Of a DNA stretch of 64,000 bases, positions 37,012-41,806 are shown one piece after another. Within the stretch, counting starts at the first letter, position 1, and each line of letters begins with the position of its first letter. The stretch lies in assembly GCA_965224025.1 (NCBI GenBank), contig OZ245033.1, positions 2,816,001 through 2,880,000 on the forward strand. Reading direction: 5' to 3'. The position numbers and the translations under genes were made by a program. The notes below the pieces were generated by a model that worked only from the letters and a program-made list of their open reading frames with translations, did not search any database and was not told the DNA's origin. This DNA is from Candidatus Multivorans sp. Its GTDB lineage: Bacteria > Acidobacteriota > Thermoanaerobaculia > Multivoradales > Multivoraceae.

Positions 37012-38628
37012 CTAGCGCCCGAGGGCTCGGCGCTGCGCTTCGGCGTACCGCGCGAGCATCCGGTCGTAGACCGCGACTGCCTGGGGGCGAGGCGCGGCGG
37101 AAGGACCGGCCTCGCCGGCCGGCGGCAGAGGGTACGGCCTGCGCCCGGTCGCGCGTAGAGCGGCGCCCAGGGCTGCGCCGTCGCTGACCTCGTGCCCCTC
37201 GACGGTGCAGCCCATCACGTCGGCGGCGATCTGGAGCATCTCCCGATTGTGGGAGCCGCCTCCGGTAGCCAGAATCCGGCTGGGCCGGGTCGCCATCCAT
37301 TCCGAGTTGAGCCGCATGGACAGGAACTGCCCTTCGACGACGGCACGGCAGTTCTGAGCTGCGTGCTCCGGCGCATCCTCCAGGCCGTCCAGCCGAACGA
37401 CCCGCGGCGACGCCACGCGCGGGACGATCTCCGGTTCGAACCACGGCAGCATCATCTTGCCGTCGTTCCCGGGCGGAGTTGCCCGCAGCGACTCCTCGAA
37501 GCTTTGCCAGTCGAGACCGTGACGGTCCCGCACCGCTTCGCGCGCCAGCGACCCGTTGCGGAAGCAGATCAGGCTCATCGGATGACCGCTCGGCGCGATG
37601 AACACATGGCCGTTGGCATCGGGATCGACGGCGACATCGTCGAGCAGGCAGAAGTAGGTGTCGCTGGTCCCCAGGCTCAGCACAGCCTCACCCGGCTCGC
37701 GGACGCCGACGCCTACCAGGGAGCAGGGGTTGTCGCCGGAGCCGATGACCGCTTGCGCGTCCGCGGAAAATCCGTAGCGGTCCACGAAGCAGGGAGCGAT
37801 CTCTCCAACGATTGTCCAGGGCGGTTGGGACGGCAGTAGACGCCCGTCCAGCCCTTCGGCGGTGGCGGCAATGGCTGTTTCAGACCATTCCCGCCGCCGG
37901 ATGTCGAGCAGGTTCATGCCCGAACCGTCGCCGTGGTCGATCGGCGCCAGCCGGCCGGCAAGGACGGAGGTGACGAAGGAGCTGACCAGGCAGACGTGTG
38001 CGGTATCGGCCCATGCGTCGGGCTCGGTCCGAGCGAAGCGCCGGATCTGGGGCCCGGTGAAGCGCTCGAAGGCGTCGCTGCCGGTGAGTTCTGCGGTCGC
38101 TGCAGCGCCGCCGAGGGTGCGCCGAATCTCCGCGCACTCCCGCGTGGTGGAGGAATCGGTCCAGATCGGTGCTTCGGTGCGGGCAAGAAGAGGCTCGATC
38201 TGCTCCGCGAGGCCCCGGTCCGGGGTCAGGGACCGAAGGCCGGCCCCGGTTCCCGATCGGAGATAGACGGAGCCATGCTGCTGGCCCGACACCGACACGC
38301 CGCTGATCTTTCCGCACAGGTCGCTGCCCAGTCGTTCGAGCGCCAGGTCCAGAGCCTCAAGCCACATGCATGGTGGTACCCGTCCGATCGCCGGATCATC
38401 GTTGGGGAGCTGGCCGTTGACGGTGCCGAACTGAGGGAGTTCGGAGTCGTAGTGGACGCGTGCGCGCGCGGCGATCTCGAGCGCCCGGTCCTCGGCCTCT
38501 CCGTCGGGCGGCGTCGCCTCAACCAGAATTACGGTCAAGCTCTGTGTGCCGACATCGATTCCGAGGTAGAGGGCCCCACCGCCAGCGCGGTCGTCGCTCT
38601 GCGGTCGCCGCTTCGCGGCGCGTCTCAT
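37012..38628 (-). CDS. xylB: Xylulokinase (FGGY family, eukaryote-like XYLB type)
   Basis: YLGIDVGTQS, SGQQHGSVY, WTDSST, ERFTGPQIR, GSGMNL, GDNP, SLGTSDT, TGGGS. Clustered with xylA; start uncertain. Confidence 0.85.
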   Translation of the reverse strand: MRRAAKRRPQSDDRAGGGALYLGIDVGTQSLTVILVEATPPDGEAEDRALEIAARARVHYDSELPQFGTVNGQLPNDDPAIGRVPPCMWLEALDLALERLGSDLCGKISGVSVSGQQHGSVYLRSGTGAGLRSLTPDRGLAEQIEPLLARTEAPIWTDSSTTRECAEIRRTLGGAAATAELTGSDAFERFTGPQIRRFARTEPDAWADTAHVCLVSSFVTSVLAGRLAPIDHGDGSGMNLLDIRRREWSETAIAATAEGLDGRLLPSQPPWTIVGEIAPCFVDRYGFSADAQAVIGSGDNPCSLVGVGVREPGEAVLSLGTSDTYFCLLDDVAVDPDANGHVFIAPSGHPMSLICFRNGSLAREAVRDRHGLDWQSFEESLRATPPGNDGKMMLPWFEPEIVPRVASPRVVRLDGLEDAPEHAAQNCRAVVEGQFLSMRLNSEWMATRPSRILATGGGSHNREMLQIAADVMGCTVEGHEVSDGAALGAALRATGRRPYPLPPAGEAGPSAAPRPQAVAVYDRMLARYAEAQRRALGR

Positions 38629-38868
38629 CCCGGAAGCCGGCCAGAAGGCCGGCGCACCTGTACCTTTCCGGGATGCATTCTGGCGTGTCGTTGAGAGAGG
38701 TGGAATGGACCAGTAGCCGTCGTGGCTGCGGTAGCTGTGGGAAACCGGCTTGCCGGTTTTCCAAGGTCCGGCGGGAAACGGTCTGCCGTTTTCCGCCGGG
38801 CCGGCAGCTTCCGCAGCCGAGACCGCCGGTCGGTTGCGTCTCCGGCCTGCCGGAGTCACTGAAGGAAA

Positions 38869-39023
38869 GTCGGCAAGCAGCCAGGAGCAACCACCGGCGT
38901 ACTGTGCTTCGAGCACCTGGCTGGGACCCGTGCCCTGGCTGCTTCGCCGCGTTGGACGCCCAGTGGAGAGTCAGTGCCTTAGAGCACCAGTACAGGTACG
39001 GGCAGGCAACGCGGCATGCCGAC
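38869..39023 (+). ncRNA. IS110 bridge RNA core (target-binding loop + donor-binding loop); the transcript probably starts near 38672
   Basis: Closing stem 38869-38875/39017-39023; stem 38876-38885/38934-38943 encloses guides matching the target; stem 38946-38954/39007-39015 encloses guides matching the element junction. Each arm has a GTGC...GCAC apical hairpin. Confidence 0.85.
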
Positions 39024-39058
39024 CAGGCAACACTACCGCAAGGGAGAAGGAGGACGAG

Positions 39059-40312
39059 ATGACCAGGACGTGGTTCGTCGGCGTGGACTGGGGGTCCGAG
39101 ACCCACCACGTGTGTGTGCTGGATCGGGACGGCAAGGTGAGGGGGGAGCGGGCGTTCGACCACAGCGGCAAGGGACTTGCCGCCATGGCCGACTGGCTCC
39201 TTGGACATACCCGACCGACGTCTCCGGACGAGATCGGCGTCGCCATCGAGGTGCCGCACGGACCGGTGGTCGAGACTCTCCTGGAGCGGGGCTTCGCCGT
39301 GCATTCGATCAACCCCAAGCAGCTCGACCGCTTCAGGGACCGCTTCTCCGTCGCCGGCGCCAAGGATGACCGCCGCGATGCACGGGCGCTCGCCGCCGCG
39401 CTTCGCACCGACCCCGAGTGCCTGAACCGCGTGCAACCATCCGATGCAGCCATCGTGATGCTGCGCGAGGTGTCCCGCGGCCGCAAGCAGTTGGTCGGCC
39501 AGAAGAACCGCCTGGAGAACCAGGTCCGCGACCAGCTCTGGCGCTACTACCCGCAGTTTCTCGCCGTGGTCAAGAACGAGGTGTCGGCGCCCTTCGCGCT
39601 GGCCTTGTGGCGACTGGCGCCGACCCCCGACAAGGCTCGACGGCTGCGCGAAGACACGCTCGCCAAACTGCTCAAGGAACACCGCATCCGGCGCCTGACT
39701 GCCGCCCAACTGCGCGATCAACTGCGGGCCGAGCCGATCGCCGTTTCCCCGGACACCGTTAAGGCCGCCGTCGAACACATAGGACTCCTCCGGCCGGTGC
39801 TCGACACCGTCTGCCGCCAACTCGCCGACGCCGAAAGGCGGCTGGAGCGGATGACCCGCGCACTCGAAGCCGACCTCTCCCGGGAAAACGACGACGACAC
39901 GCCCAAGCCGAGCGACGCCGCCATCCTCAGGTCGCTGCCCGGACTCGGCAAGGTCGGCCTCGCCACCCTGCTCTCCGAGGCCGATCAAAGCCTGGGCCGC
40001 AGAGACTACGAGGCACTGCGTTGCCTCTGCGGAGTGGCGCCGGTGACCGTCAAGTCCGGCAAGAAGCTCATCGTCATGCGACGACTCGCCGCCAACGAAC
40101 ACCTCAGCGACGCCGTCTATCACTGGGGACGAGTCGCCATCCAGCACGACCCGATCAGCCGCGCCAAGTACGACGCCATGAAAGCCGAAGGCAAGACACA
40201 CGGACGAGCCATCAGACAACTCGTCGATCGACTCCTCGGCGTCGCCTGCGCCATGCTCCGAGACCGCACTCTCTTCGACCCCAACAAGAGAAGCCATGCC
40301 CAGGTCGCATGA
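39059..40312 (+). CDS. IS110-family DEDD recombinase/transposase
   Basis: VGVDWGSETH (D), IEVPHG (E), KDDRRDA (DD), SLPGLG, GVAPVTVKSGK (Tnp-domain Ser). GGAGG RBS before ATG 39059. Confidence 0.95.
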   Translation: MTRTWFVGVDWGSETHHVCVLDRDGKVRGERAFDHSGKGLAAMADWLLGHTRPTSPDEIGVAIEVPHGPVVETLLERGFAVHSINPKQLDRFRDRFSVAGAKDDRRDARALAAALRTDPECLNRVQPSDAAIVMLREVSRGRKQLVGQKNRLENQVRDQLWRYYPQFLAVVKNEVSAPFALALWRLAPTPDKARRLREDTLAKLLKEHRIRRLTAAQLRDQLRAEPIAVSPDTVKAAVEHIGLLRPVLDTVCRQLADAERRLERMTRALEADLSRENDDDTPKPSDAAILRSLPGLGKVGLATLLSEADQSLGRRDYEALRCLCGVAPVTVKSGKKLIVMRRLAANEHLSDAVYHWGRVAIQHDPISRAKYDAMKAEGKTHGRAIRQLVDRLLGVACAMLRDRTLFDPNKRSHAQVA

Positions 40313-40441
40313 CCTGCCTGACCCGCAGCAACCTCCCCAAAACACACTTGCTAAAGGGTGGAGAGTCCCAGTCACGCTGGCGGACTGGTCCTGCCGCCCC
40401 CTCCGCTCTCTGGTCAGGCGGGTGCGTCCGCACGGCCGTCG

Positions 40442-41806
40442 TTACTCGATGTGGGTGCTGTACAGGTAGTCGTTGAGGATGCTCTCGAGCTCCTCCTGGC
40501 GGCCGCTGATCTTCGGCGGTTCGCCGAGTCGTCCGGCCCAGTCCTCGAGTTCCTCGAGGGTGGTCTCGCCGGCCAGGAGCTTGCGGCCGAGGCCGCGGCG
40601 GTAGCCGGCGTAGCGCTGCCGAATCCGCTTGCCGGCGAGGCCGAGGACGCCGTCCTTCCGGATGCGGTCGACGATCAGGAGCGCCTTGGCGAAGACGTCC
40701 ATCGACGCGATGTGGGCGTAGAACAGGTCAACGGTGTCAAAGGAGCCGCGACGGACCTTGGCGTCGAAGTTCAGGCCGCCCCAGCGCAGGCCGCCCTGGC
40801 CCTGGATGATGAGCAGGGCCAGGACGCATTCGCGGAGGCTCATGGCGAAGTTGTCCGTGTCCCAGCCGACGCCTTCCAGACCGCGGTTGATGTCGACGCT
40901 GCCGAGCATTCCGGCGCCCGCCGCGGTCGCCAGCTCGTGTTCGAAGGAGTGGGTGGCGAGCGTCGCGTGATTCGCCTCGACGTTGAGCAGGAAGTCGTCT
41001 GTCAGCTCGAACTCGCGCAGGAAGTTCAGGCAGTGCCCGCAGTCGAAATCGTACTGGTGGATGGAGGGTTCCTTCGCCTTGGGTTCGAGGAAGAACCTGC
41101 CCTTGAAGCCATGGCGCCGGGCGTAGTCGACGGCGAGCCGGAGGAAGGCGGCCAGTTGCTCGCGTTCGCGGCGCATGTCCGTGTTGATCAGCGAGGTGTA
41201 GCCCTCTCGGCCGCCCCAGAACACGTATCCGGCGCCGCCGAGTTCGATCGTGGCGTCGATGGCGCGCCGGACCTGGGCGGCCGCGTGGGCGAAGACCCGG
41301 GGATCCGGGTTCGTCGCCGCGCCGTGGGTGTAGCGCGGGTGGCCGAACAGGTTCGCCGTGCCCCAGAGCAGCTTGACGCCGGTCTCGCGCTGCCGGATTC
41401 GCGCCAGTTGGACGATCTCCTCCAGGTACTCGTTGCTCTCGGCGACAGAGCGGCCTTCGGGCGCGATGTCCCGGTCGTGGAAGCAGTAGTAGCGCACGCC
41501 GAGCTTGGTGAAGAACTCGAACGCGGCGTTGAGCGTCCGCTGGGCGACCTCGATCGGTGTCGACGCGTGGCTCCAGGGGCGGTCGTACACGGGATCCGGT
41601 CCGAACGGGTCCTGGCCGCCGCCCTTCAAGGTGTGCCAGTAGGCGACCGCGAACTTGAGTTGCCGCTCCATCGTGGAGCGGCCGACCTTCCGCGTGCGGT
41701 CGTAGTACTTGAACGCGAGCGGGTCGCGGCTGTCGGGGCCTTGGAAAGGGATCGCCGTCTGGATCTCCGGGAAGAACGGCTCGACTTGGGGGAAGAAGGG
41801 CGTCAT
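40442..41806 (-). CDS. xylA: Xylose isomerase (class II)
   Basis: FAVAYWHT, FHDRD, WGTANLF, VFWGGREGY, EPKAKEP, HQYDFD, NVEANHA, GWDTD, GGLNFDAKVRR. Start trimmed to ATG 41806. Confidence 0.95.
   Translation of the reverse strand: MTPFFPQVEPFFPEIQTAIPFQGPDSRDPLAFKYYDRTRKVGRSTMERQLKFAVAYWHTLKGGGQDPFGPDPVYDRPWSHASTPIEVAQRTLNAAFEFFTKLGVRYYCFHDRDIAPEGRSVAESNEYLEEIVQLARIRQRETGVKLLWGTANLFGHPRYTHGAATNPDPRVFAHAAAQVRRAIDATIELGGAGYVFWGGREGYTSLINTDMRREREQLAAFLRLAVDYARRHGFKGRFFLEPKAKEPSIHQYDFDCGHCLNFLREFELTDDFLLNVEANHATLATHSFEHELATAAGAGMLGSVDINRGLEGVGWDTDNFAMSLRECVLALLIIQGQGGLRWGGLNFDAKVRRGSFDTVDLFYAHIASMDVFAKALLIVDRIRKDGVLGLAGKRIRQRYAGYRRGLGRKLLAGETTLEELEDWAGRLGEPPKISGRQEELESILNDYLYSTHIE

What the first reader, a model, noticed from the sequence alone, without database searches (positions are those of the whole stretch)
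38869..39023. IS110 bridge RNA whose four guide segments can be read directly against its target and donor DNA
Seen in sequence: the non-coding left end folds into two similar arms inside a closing stem (GTCGGCA 38869-38875 / TGCCGAC 39017-39023). Each arm is an internal loop capped by a GTGC...GCAC hairpin. Arm 1: CCGGCGTAC (38894-38902) matches the left flank CCGGCGCAC (38649-38657; one U-G wobble). GGCTGGG (38919-38925) is complementary to core plus right flank CCCAGTC (40367-40373; one G-T wobble). Arm 2: GTGGAGAGTC (38963-38972) is identical to the right end 40358-40367. GTACAGG (38990-38996) is complementary to core plus left end CCTGTAC (38657-38663). Established: IS110 DEDD recombinases such as IS621 use a bispecific bridge RNA with separate target- and donor-binding loops. 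Inference: this is an intact, reprogrammable RNA-guided recombinase with a CC core and relatively long right-side guides. The class is known, but this ortholog and its specificity may not be.
Basis: partly seen in the sequence, partly recalled or inferred. Interest (0 to 1): 0.93.

Follow-up and report, generated by a model that had tools for sequence, protein, structure and literature searches.

The report
IS110 insertion sequence with bridge RNA
This is an intact, recently active IS110-type jumping gene whose own small RNA carries four short guides that match its insertion site and its own ends; it is a clean new example of the RNA-guided "bridge recombinase" system described in 2024, not a new kind of system.

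Summary

- **The element.** It is a 1,710-bp IS110-group insertion sequence (38659-40368). It sits in a REP-like hairpin repeat between xylB and xylA. Same-genus genomes have the uninterrupted site GCCGGCGCA-CC-CAGT, which fixes a CC core.
- **The transposase.** The 417-aa protein passes Pfam PF01548 and PF02371 and NCBIfam "IS110 family RNA-guided transposase". It keeps the DEDD residues and the catalytic serine.
- **Covariation test.** Across 81 loci (57-100% protein identity) the RNA scaffold and donor loop are conserved. The target-loop guides change together with each family's flanks: 19 guide types, 0 of 100,000 permutations reach the observed match, and 1 of 5,040 does for seven independent target classes.
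- **Further support.** Stems show compensatory changes. Handshake guides and a promoter split across the RE-LE junction are also present.

Verdict: a real bridge RNA and a new member of a known kind. The most unusual part is a conserved Y-shaped module upstream of it.

The parts
38636..38653 (+). REP-like hairpin of the target repeat (GCCGGCC-AGAA-GGCCGGC); its 3' arm overlaps the left target
   Evidence: Read. The same hairpin precedes most of the 70 empty sites and all occupied sites.
38649..38658 (+). Left target CCGGCGCA plus core CC (left junction)
   Evidence: Orthologous empty site.
38659..40368 (+). The insertion sequence, 1,710 bp counting one copy of the CC core at its right end
   Evidence: Boundaries come from 15 aligned copies and from empty sites in same-genus genomes.
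38661..38666 (+). -10-like hexamer TACCTT at the tip of the left end; half of a promoter that exists only across an RE-LE junction
   Evidence: TACCYT is conserved in all families, 17 nt from the RE hexamer. No sigma-70-like site is found in the linear element.
38716..38830 (+). Y-shaped, very stable module (two hairpins inside a closing stem) between the LE tip and the bridge RNA; function unknown
   Evidence: Folds. 90% identical to L052 while the neighbouring LE is 49-63%. Also occurs outside IS110 copies.
38840..38855 (+). 5' stem-loop CTCCGG-CCTG-CCGGAG preceding the two guide arms
   Evidence: Read. A hairpin at the same place in relatives is read from the alignment. A 5' stem-loop is part of the published consensus. 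In the whole-LE MFE fold this stretch pairs with the 3' end of the LE instead.
38869..39023 (+). Bridge RNA core: closing stem 38869-75/39017-23, target arm 38876-38943, donor arm 38946-39015
   Evidence: Covariance model R1 scores it 170.7 bits.
38894..38903 (+). Left target guide (LTG) CCGGCGTAC(T), same sense as left target plus core
   Evidence: Position 38900 is T or C among the genome's copies, the same position at which targets vary.
38904..38916 (+). Target-loop hairpin GTGC-TTCGA-GCAC
   Evidence: 98.1% of cells paired, one pair with compensatory change.
38918..38925 (+). Right target guide (RTG) TGGCTGGG, complementary to core plus right target CCCAG(T/C)CA
38926..38927 (+). Target-loop handshake guide AC, complementary to the last two bases (GT) of the left donor and not to the left target
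   Evidence: the reverse complement of the RTG begins GT-CC in most families. Rule taken from the paper passages.
38963..38972 (+). Left donor guide (LDG) GTGGAGAGTC, identical to the right tip of the element
38974..38987 (+). Donor-loop hairpin GTGC-CTTAGA-GCAC
   Evidence: 100% of cells paired; C-G to U-A compensatory change in 6 sequences.
38990..38996 (+). Right donor guide (RDG) GTACAGG, complementary to core plus the first five bases of the element (CC-TGTAC)
38997..38998 (+). Donor-loop handshake guide TA, complementary to the last bases of the left target (TA variant fully, CA variant at the core-proximal base)
   Evidence: the core-proximal base covaries with left-target position 7 across families (A, C or G).
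39047..39053 (+). Ribosome-binding site AAGGAGG
   Evidence: Read.
39059..40312 (+). IS110-family transposase / bridge recombinase, 417 aa
   Evidence: PF01548 2e-33, PF02371 1.7e-12. NF033542 178.7 bits against a cutoff of 140. IS621 8wt6 E 7e-12.
40348..40353 (+). -35-like hexamer TTGCTA in the right end, 17 nt from TACCTT once the ends are joined
   Evidence: TTGCWA/TTGACW is conserved at a fixed distance from the tip in 24 of the 25 distinct RE/LE pairs listed (L105 has TTTACA).
40358..40368 (+). Left donor GTGGAGAGT plus core CC (right junction)
40369..40374 (+). Right target CAGTCA

Best explanation
Window 38659-40368 is a full-length, recently active IS110-group insertion sequence. Its left end encodes a bridge RNA whose core is 38869-39023, preceded by a 5' stem-loop.

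Inferred mechanism, by analogy with IS621:
1. The element excises as a circle.
2. Joining the right end (RE) to the left end (LE) brings a -35 box (RE) and a -10 box (LE) together.
3. That promoter transcribes the bridge RNA and the transposase.
4. A recombinase tetramer holds the RNA.
5. The donor loop pairs with the circle junction GTGGAGAGT-CC-TGTAC. The LDG pairs with the bottom strand and the RDG with the top strand.
6. The target loop pairs with the REP-like site CCGGCG(C/T)A-CC-CAG(T/C)CA. The LTG pairs with the bottom strand and the RTG with the top strand.
7. Strands are exchanged at the CC core through a phosphoserine intermediate (S333), helped by two-base handshake guides that pair only with the incoming, non-cognate strand.

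The U in the LTG and the G and U in the RTG let one RNA read both common variants of the repeat through wobble pairs.

Shown here: the anatomy, the family membership of the protein, the exact insertion boundaries and core, the multi-copy site-specific insertion, and the covariation of guides with flanks.

Inferred: transcription, RNA-protein binding, catalysis and programmability.
For: - **Protein.** PF01548 and PF02371. NF033542 'IS110 family RNA-guided transposase' scores 178.7 bits against a cutoff of 140. The IS621 catalytic residues align to D10/E64/D104/D107/S333-G334.
- **Boundaries and core.** 15 aligned copies share ...CGGCG(C/T)ACC|TGTACC and GGAGAGTCC|C(A/G)G(T/C). Four of the 7 orthologous loci fetched from same-genus genomes carry the uninterrupted GCCGGCGCACCCAGT. 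The genome holds 70 empty sites (relaxed motif), 17 left junctions and 15 right junctions.
- **Activity.** 13 uninterrupted full-length ORFs, one 100% identical to the window's protein; the DNA of that copy is 99.8% identical.
- **Scaffold.** 27 distinct RNAs: 89.5% of cells paired, 13 of 41 pairs with compensatory change, 0 of 500 shuffles as high, and slid controls at 26-42%. The target loop is variable and the donor loop conserved, as published.
- **Guide/flank covariation.** Of 81 loci, 77 could be parsed and 67 had both junctions, giving 19 guide types. Own-pair score is 207 of 285 against a permuted mean of 121.7 (sd 11), with 0 of 100,000 permutations as high. For seven independent target classes only the identity permutation reaches the observed score (1 of 5,040).
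- **Handshake guides.** The core-proximal base of the donor-loop handshake guide tracks left-target position 7 (A, C or G) across families.
- **Junction promoter.** TTGCWA-17 nt-TACCYT is conserved (24 of the 25 distinct RE/LE pairs listed).
- **Occupancy.** The target variant that pairs without wobble is occupied in 4 of 7 sites, against 10 of 77 for the others (Fisher p 0.013, a post hoc test).
Against:
- No sigma-70-like promoter is found in the integrated element (0 found). No circle or tandem junction exists in the assembly (0 matches).
- The second core position of the LTG (U) and of the LDG (A) is not Watson-Crick to the CC core. For IS621, pairing to both strands of the core was strongly preferred.
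- The MFE fold pairs part of the LTG with part of the RTG.
- The closing stem is weakly supported comparatively (70.9%).
- Within this genome the T/C state of the LTG does not track the T/C state of its own flank (counts 8, 3, 2, 2). That is expected if the RNA acts in trans, but it is not positive evidence.
- Rfam 15 gives no significant match (best E 0.6, to unrelated sRNAs).
Confidence: 0.93

Rival explanations
1. The structured left end is a protein-binding or translational leader, and target choice is made by the transposase protein alone. On this reading the matches between loops and ends or flanks are sub-terminal repeats of the kind many insertion sequences carry.
For: - The donor-side matches are repeats of the element's own tips.
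- A short inverted repeat AAAGG/CCTTT flanks the donor site.
- No RNA evidence was obtainable.
Against: - The target-side guides change with the flanks in every family while the protein and scaffold stay alike.
- The sense/antisense asymmetry (left guides same sense, right guides complementary) is exactly that of IS621.
- Every natural target variant differs from the guides only at positions that allow G-U or G-T wobble. That is a signature of RNA pairing, not protein reading.
- Stems covary as an RNA would.
Confidence: 0.03
2. The bridge RNA is real in kind, but this lineage is no longer mobile. The copies would be relics spread by an earlier burst, and the imperfect core pairing and lack of an internal promoter would reflect decay.
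For: - There is no promoter in the linear form.
- The LTG and LDG are non-Watson-Crick at the second core base.
- Some copies are damaged: one broken frame, one 5'-truncated copy, one LE-only fragment and one solo RNA remnant. Two copies lack 88 nt of the left end.
Against: - A second copy is 99.8% identical in DNA and 100% in protein.
- 13 ORFs are uninterrupted.
- The orthologous site is empty in four same-genus genomes, so this insertion postdates their divergence.
- A promoter that exists only in the circle is the normal state for IS110.
- The same non-Watson-Crick core positions recur in all relatives, so they are a family trait.
Confidence: 0.04

Closest known systems
IS621 (E. coli) bridge recombinase and its 177-nt bridge RNA (Durrant et al. 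2024, PMC11208160; Hiraizumi et al. 2024, PMC11208158)
   Same: - DEDD RuvC-like domain plus a Tnp domain with catalytic Ser-Gly.
- RNA encoded in a long left end.
[quoted passage not shown]
- Target loop first and variable, donor loop second and conserved.
- Left guides same sense, right guides antisense.
- A two-base core and handshake guides 3' of the right guides.
- A REP-type repeated target.
- A promoter rebuilt across the RE-LE junction.
   Different: - Only distant protein similarity (E 7e-12, two short aligned stretches).
- 417 aa rather than 326. The extra length lies between the two catalytic domains, where IS621 has its coiled coil.
- CC core instead of CT.
- The RTG reads core plus 5-7 bases.
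- The LTG and LDG are not Watson-Crick at the second core base.
- A roughly 115-nt Y-shaped module and a 400-nt left end.
IS622 / ISCro4 (Citrobacter rodentium), the bridge recombinase engineered for human cells (bioRxiv 10.1101/2025.05.14.653916; PDB 9t56)
   Same: Same family and same guide and handshake logic.
   Different: Distant in sequence (E 8.4e-10). It uses a CT (or GT) core. Nothing is known about the activity of the present ortholog.
ISPpu10 (Pseudomonas putida), an IS110 element whose target needs a GC-rich stem-loop 5' of the paired site (bioRxiv 10.64898/2026.03.19.712850; abstract only read)
   Same: Here too, all insertions lie at the 3' side of a GC-rich hairpin of an intergenic repeat.
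   Different: Whether the hairpin is required here is untested. About a quarter of the relaxed-motif empty sites listed lack an obvious hairpin.

Membership tests
IS110 family insertion sequence, IS110 group | N-terminal DEDD (RuvC-like) domain with the four acidic residues | tested here: met
   PF01548 at 2e-33 over residues 7-165. D10, E64, D104 and D107 align to IS621 D11, E60, D102 and D105.
IS110 family insertion sequence, IS110 group | C-terminal Tnp domain with the catalytic serine | tested here: met
   PF02371 at 1.7e-12. S333-G334 align to IS621 S241-G242.
IS110 family insertion sequence, IS110 group | Passes the curated family model | tested here: met
   NF033542 'IS110 family RNA-guided transposase', 178.7 bits against a cutoff of 140.
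IS110 family insertion sequence, IS110 group | Long left end and short right end; no long terminal inverted repeats; no duplication beyond the shared core | tested here: met
   LE 400 bp, RE 56 bp. The empty site has three Cs; the occupied site has two at the left junction and three at the right junction, which means one extra CC.
IS110 family insertion sequence, IS110 group | Site-specific insertion into one repeated sequence | tested here: met
   All 15 aligned copies lie in the same REP-like motif.
IS110 family insertion sequence, IS110 group | Promoter rebuilt across the RE-LE junction of the circle | tested here: inconclusive
   Conserved TTGCWA-17-TACCYT by consensus (24 of the 25 distinct RE/LE pairs listed). 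No circle junction is in the assembly and no expression data exist.
Bridge RNA (IS110-group type) | [quoted passage not shown] | tested here: met
   for the two arms: 13 of 41 pairs compensatory and 0 of 500 shuffles as high. The closing helix is the weakest (70.9%). The 5' stem-loop is read from the sequence and the alignment and is not kept in the whole-LE MFE fold.
Bridge RNA (IS110-group type) | First loop variable, second loop conserved among orthologues | tested here: met
   Alignments; published rule.
Bridge RNA (IS110-group type) | LTG same sense as the left target, RTG complementary to the right target, and both covary with the flanks | tested here: met
   0 of 100,000 permutations; 1 of 5,040.
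Bridge RNA (IS110-group type) | LDG and RDG match the element's right and left tips | tested here: met
   10 of 10 and 7 of 7 bases. The same holds in the relatives.
Bridge RNA (IS110-group type) | Core dinucleotide included in all four pairings | tested here: inconclusive
   The RTG and RDG carry GG opposite CC. The LTG has C then U (wobble) and the LDG has C then A (mismatch) at the core. Relatives show UU, CU, CC or CA in the LDG.
Bridge RNA (IS110-group type) | Handshake guides pair with positions 6-7 of the non-cognate DNA and not with the cognate DNA | tested here: met
   Target loop AC against donor GT. Donor loop UA against target TA or CA. The core-proximal base covaries with the target across families. 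Rule.
Bridge RNA (IS110-group type) | The RNA is transcribed, binds the recombinase and is required for recombination | not testable with these tools
This needs bench work.

The most novel reading that the evidence does not exclude
The roughly 115-nt Y-shaped module (38716-38830) may be a functional accessory domain rather than passenger DNA. It lies between the junction promoter's -10 box and the bridge RNA, so it would form the 5' part of an extended bridge transcript, or it would act as a cis-acting insulator or processing signal.

- Between orthologues whose proteins are 65% identical it is 90% identical. The bridge RNA itself is 73% and the neighbouring left end 49-63%.
- It shows one compensatory A-U to G-C change.
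- It also occurs at about 85% identity beside an IS21-like element and at other places without any bridge RNA.

This would mean a structured module shared between unrelated transposon families.

A second, smaller point: the wobble positions in the guides look like a natural way of coding degenerate specificity for two variants of the target repeat.
Probability: 0.15. Interest if true: 0.55.

Novelty: new member of a known kind. Interest (0 to 1): 0.35.

Why it matters
This is a clean natural example in which all the parts of bridge recombination can be read from sequence alone: four guides, both handshake guides, the core, the split promoter, and occupied and empty sites. It comes from an uncultured, high-GC Acidobacteriota lineage far from the enterobacterial systems studied so far.

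A clade with a CC core, longer right target guides and seven or more naturally different target specificities on one scaffold could be useful material for widening the range of programmable bridge recombinases. It could also help in asking how much core pairing by the left guides is really needed. It does not change what is known about the mechanism.

I found no paper that holds IS110, bridge RNA and Acidobacteriota or Acidobacteria together. The published ortholog catalogues are in supplements that I could not open, so the element may already be listed there.

Tried and rejected
- **Rfam 15** (E-value mode on 38400-40600) gave only two chance-level matches to unrelated sRNAs, both over the Y-shaped module (E 0.6 and 0.66). 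There is no usable family.
- **Promoter scan** of the linear element found none. I therefore looked across the simulated RE|LE junction instead.
- **LTG versus own flank.** I tested whether the T/C polymorphism of the LTG tracks the T/C state of each copy's own flank within this genome. It does not (8, 3, 2, 2).
- **Other IS110 paralogs.** I looked for them in the genome to explain the extra copies of the Y module. tblastn found only this one family. Pfam then showed IS21-like genes next to one such copy, and 8 of the 10 ORFs scanned had no family.
- **R1 search around module copies in relatives.** The bridge RNA was found only in the two G010 loci, out of 10 loci searched. The G002 copies lie about 80 nt from contig ends, so they are uninformative.
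- **Closing stem.** I kept it because the single-sequence folds and most relatives allow it, but it is the weakest helix.
- **Not attempted.** I did not predict the protein structure or a complex, because family membership was already clear.
- **Supplements of the papers are closed.** I could not check whether this ortholog is in the published IS110 database.
Full report
**What is there.** The region 38500-40600 was read directly. An ORF at 39059-40312 (417 aa), preceded by AAGGAGG, matches Pfam DEDD_Tnp_IS110 (2e-33) and Transposase_20 (1.7e-12). It also passes the NCBIfam equivalog NF033542, "IS110 family RNA-guided transposase", with 178.7 bits against a cutoff of 140. The only solved structures with detectable similarity are the IS621 transposase (8wt6, E 7e-12) and the ISCro4 transposase (9t56). 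In that alignment the IS621 catalytic residues D11, E60, D102, D105 and S241-G242 (passages of PMC11208158) fall on D10, E64, D104, D107 and S333-G334 of this protein. The protein is about 90 residues longer than IS621, and the extra length lies between the two catalytic domains.

**Boundaries, core and copy number.** The window lies in a 5.14-Mb genome of 67.6% G+C. Its nearest named relatives are metagenome-assembled genomes labelled Candidatus Multivorans (Acidobacteriota, Thermoanaerobaculia).
- The genome holds 14 full-length copies at 96-100% DNA identity, one 5'-truncated copy and one fragment that keeps only the left end.
- By tblastn, 13 copies have an uninterrupted ORF. One of these is 100% identical in protein to the window's copy, and one further copy has a broken frame near residue 20.
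- All 15 alignable left junctions read ...CGGCG(C/T)ACC|TGTACC. All 15 right junctions read GGAGAGTCC|C(A/G)G(T/C).
- The insertion lies at the 3' side of a REP-like hairpin (GCCGGCC-AGAA-GGCCGGC in the window), between xylB and xylA (ORFs; the gene names are my reading of the translations, not a tool result).
- The genome has 70 unoccupied sites matching CGGCG[CT]ACCC[AG]G[CT] (38 with the stricter 17-base motif), 17 left junctions, 15 right junctions and no RE-LE junction.
- I fetched 7 orthologous xylB-side loci from same-genus genomes. Four carry the same repeat uninterrupted...GCCGGCGCACCCAGTG... (L114, L115, L117, L118). The other three lack the repeat at that place.

The element is therefore 38659-40368, 1,710 bp. 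The target is CCGGCGCA-CC-CAGT, the donor junction is GTGGAGAGT-CC-TGTAC, and the shared core is CC.

**The RNA.**
- The fold of 38860-39035 gives a closing stem and two similar arms, each an internal loop capped by a GTGC...GCAC hairpin (-80.9 kcal/mol, z -2.76).
- The same domain appears unchanged when the whole 400-nt left end is folded (z -6.08, 0 of 100 shuffles).
- A scan of genome contigs with the protein returned 80 loci at 56-94% identity. They come mostly from Thermoanaerobaculia and Vicinamibacterales genomes, plus an Azospirillum genome and two proteobacterial assemblies.
- The 272 nt upstream of their ORFs fall into 46 distinct sequences that align throughout.
- In 27 distinct bridge regions the three-way-junction structure has 89.5% of cells paired and 13 of 41 pairs with changes on both sides. 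None of 500 column shuffles reaches these values, and partners slid by 1-3 columns give only 26-42% pairing.
- RNAalifold on its own recovers both arm stems and both hairpins, with 11 compensatory pairs among 31.
- The first internal loop is hypervariable and the second nearly invariant. That matches the published consensus for IS110 left ends, as do the arm sizes (68 and 70 nt here; 65 and 68 nt in IS621).

**The decisive test: guides against flanks.** I parsed the target-loop guides in 77 of 81 loci (the window plus the 80 fetched loci) and both junctions in 67. These fall into 19 guide types. In each family the 5' side of the loop repeats the left flank and the 3' side is the reverse complement of the core plus the right flank.

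| Locus | Left guide and flank | Right guide (reverse complement) and flank |
|---|---|---|
| L060 | GGGGTCCC | CCTTTTCA |
| L063 | GCGATCCC | CCATTTG |
| L068 | GTGGACGC | CCTCCCC |
| L073 | GTGATAGCCC | CCTTGTC |
| L093 | TCGTCCC | CCCTCCC |
| L105 | not listed | CCCCCCC |
| L052 | not listed | CCCGGTT |

(All.)

- Summed identity of guides with their own flanks is 207 of 285, against 121.7 (sd 11) for permuted pairings. None of 100,000 permutations reaches it.
- The 19 types are not independent, so I repeated the test with one representative of each of seven unrelated target classes. Only the identity permutation reaches the observed score (1 of 5,040).
- Exceptions: L075, L089 and L099 match poorly on the right. 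In L075 and L089 the right end is followed directly by CC-TGTAC, a donor-like sequence.

1. *Handshake guides.* The two bases 3' of the RTG (AC, 38926-27) complement the last two bases of the left donor (GT) and not those of the left target. The two bases 3' of the RDG (UA, 38997-98) complement the end of the left target (TA variant fully; CA variant at the core-proximal base) and not the donor. This is the handshake-guide rule of IS621. Across families the core-proximal donor-loop handshake base is A, C or G exactly as left-target position 7 is A, C or G.
2. *Wobble.* The guides are fully Watson-Crick to the repeat variant CCGGCGTA-CC-CAGC. The commoner variants (C at 38655, T at 40372, or G in CGGT) differ only where U-G or G-T wobble is possible. 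The perfect variant is occupied in 4 of 7 sites, against 10 of 77 for all the others (Fisher p 0.013; post hoc and on few sites).
3. *Polymorphism.* Among the genome's copies the only polymorphic guide base is 38900 (T or C), the position that faces the polymorphic target base. It does not correlate with each copy's own flank, as expected if the RNA acts in trans.
4. *Promoter.* No sigma-70-like promoter exists in the integrated element. Once the ends are joined, TTGCTA (40348-53) lies 17 nt upstream of TACCTT (38661-66), and both hexamers are conserved at fixed positions in 24 of the 25 distinct RE/LE pairs listed. Such a junction promoter is the known state of IS110 elements.
5. *Core pairing.* The second core position is U in the LTG and A in the LDG, so the left guides pair fully with only the first C of the core. 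In IS621, pairing with both strands of the core was strongly preferred.

**Distribution.** A covariance model built from the 27 sequences finds 16 copies in this genome. Fifteen belong to the element copies above. One is a decayed solo fragment without a transposase. Across 151 genomes drawn from the phylum, including this one, 4 have a match at E <= 1e-5 under the stricter filters. The family is patchy, as insertion sequences are.

**What remains unexplained.** The window's clade has a 400-nt left end, against about 235 nt in the Vicinamibacterales relatives. The extra sequence is mainly a Y-shaped module at about 38716-38830, made of two A-tract/U-tract hairpins inside a closing stem (-96 kcal/mol for 146 nt).
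- It is the best-conserved part of the left end: 90% identity to L052, whose protein is 65% identical, against 73% for the bridge RNA and 49-63% for the neighbouring left end.
- One A-U to G-C compensatory change is seen in L051.
- Copies at about 85% identity lie elsewhere in the genome inside another repeat, one of them next to IS21-like istA/istB genes. One lies in another genome without a bridge RNA nearby.
- Two otherwise intact copies of the IS lack 88 nt of it.

I cannot say what it does.

**Comparison and verdict.** The element meets every sequence-level criterion of an IS110-group insertion sequence with a bridge RNA. The open criteria are that the RNA is made, that it binds the protein and that it is required for recombination. 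It differs from IS621 and IS622 in five ways:
- the CC core,
- the longer RTG (a variation already noted in print),
- the non-Watson-Crick left-guide core positions,
- the longer inter-domain region of the protein,
- the extended left end.

It is a new member of a known kind. I found no paper holding IS110, bridge RNA and Acidobacteriota or Acidobacteria together. The published ortholog catalogues are in supplements that I could not read.

Noticed in passing
window 38716-38830; also G000 C1 near 3672578, 2474161, 4048787, 1301877; L122: A Y-shaped, very stable structured module lies inside the left end. It is more conserved than the bridge RNA itself (90% against 73% identity to L052). Copies at about 85% identity occur outside IS110 elements, one of them beside IS21-like istA/istB genes. 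Function unknown.
   Followed up: partly
G000 C1:4322363-4322573 (minus strand): A solo fragment of about 195 bp from the left end covers the bridge RNA but has no transposase. It has a mutated right donor guide and has lost the 3' strand of the closing stem. It is a decayed relic between two genes.
   Followed up: partly
G000 C1:3853422-3854991 and C1:598908-600487: Two copies of the element with uninterrupted ORFs lack 88 nt of the left end (window about 38710-38797, most of the Y module).
   Followed up: no
L075 (Azospirillum canadense) and L089, right junctions: The right end is followed directly by CC-TGTAC, that is, by a donor-like left-end start rather than the expected target. This may be a tandem or nested arrangement, or an insertion next to a left-end remnant.
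   Followed up: no
window 40353-40357 and 38663-38667: A short sub-terminal inverted repeat AAAGG / CCTTT flanks the donor recognition sequence. In L068 the two halves change together (AACGG / CCGTT). In other families the match is imperfect.
   Followed up: partly
window 38636-38658 and about 70 other places in G000: A REP-like family of GC-rich hairpins followed by GCACCCAGT is spread through the genome and through same-genus genomes (hundreds of short matches). It is the landing pad of this element.
   Followed up: partly
window 37012-38590 (minus strand) and 40442-41780 (minus strand): The insertion separates a xylose isomerase-like ORF from a xylulokinase-like ORF that lie on the same strand, so it may affect co-transcription of the two. 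The gene names are read from the translations and were not tested.
   Followed up: no
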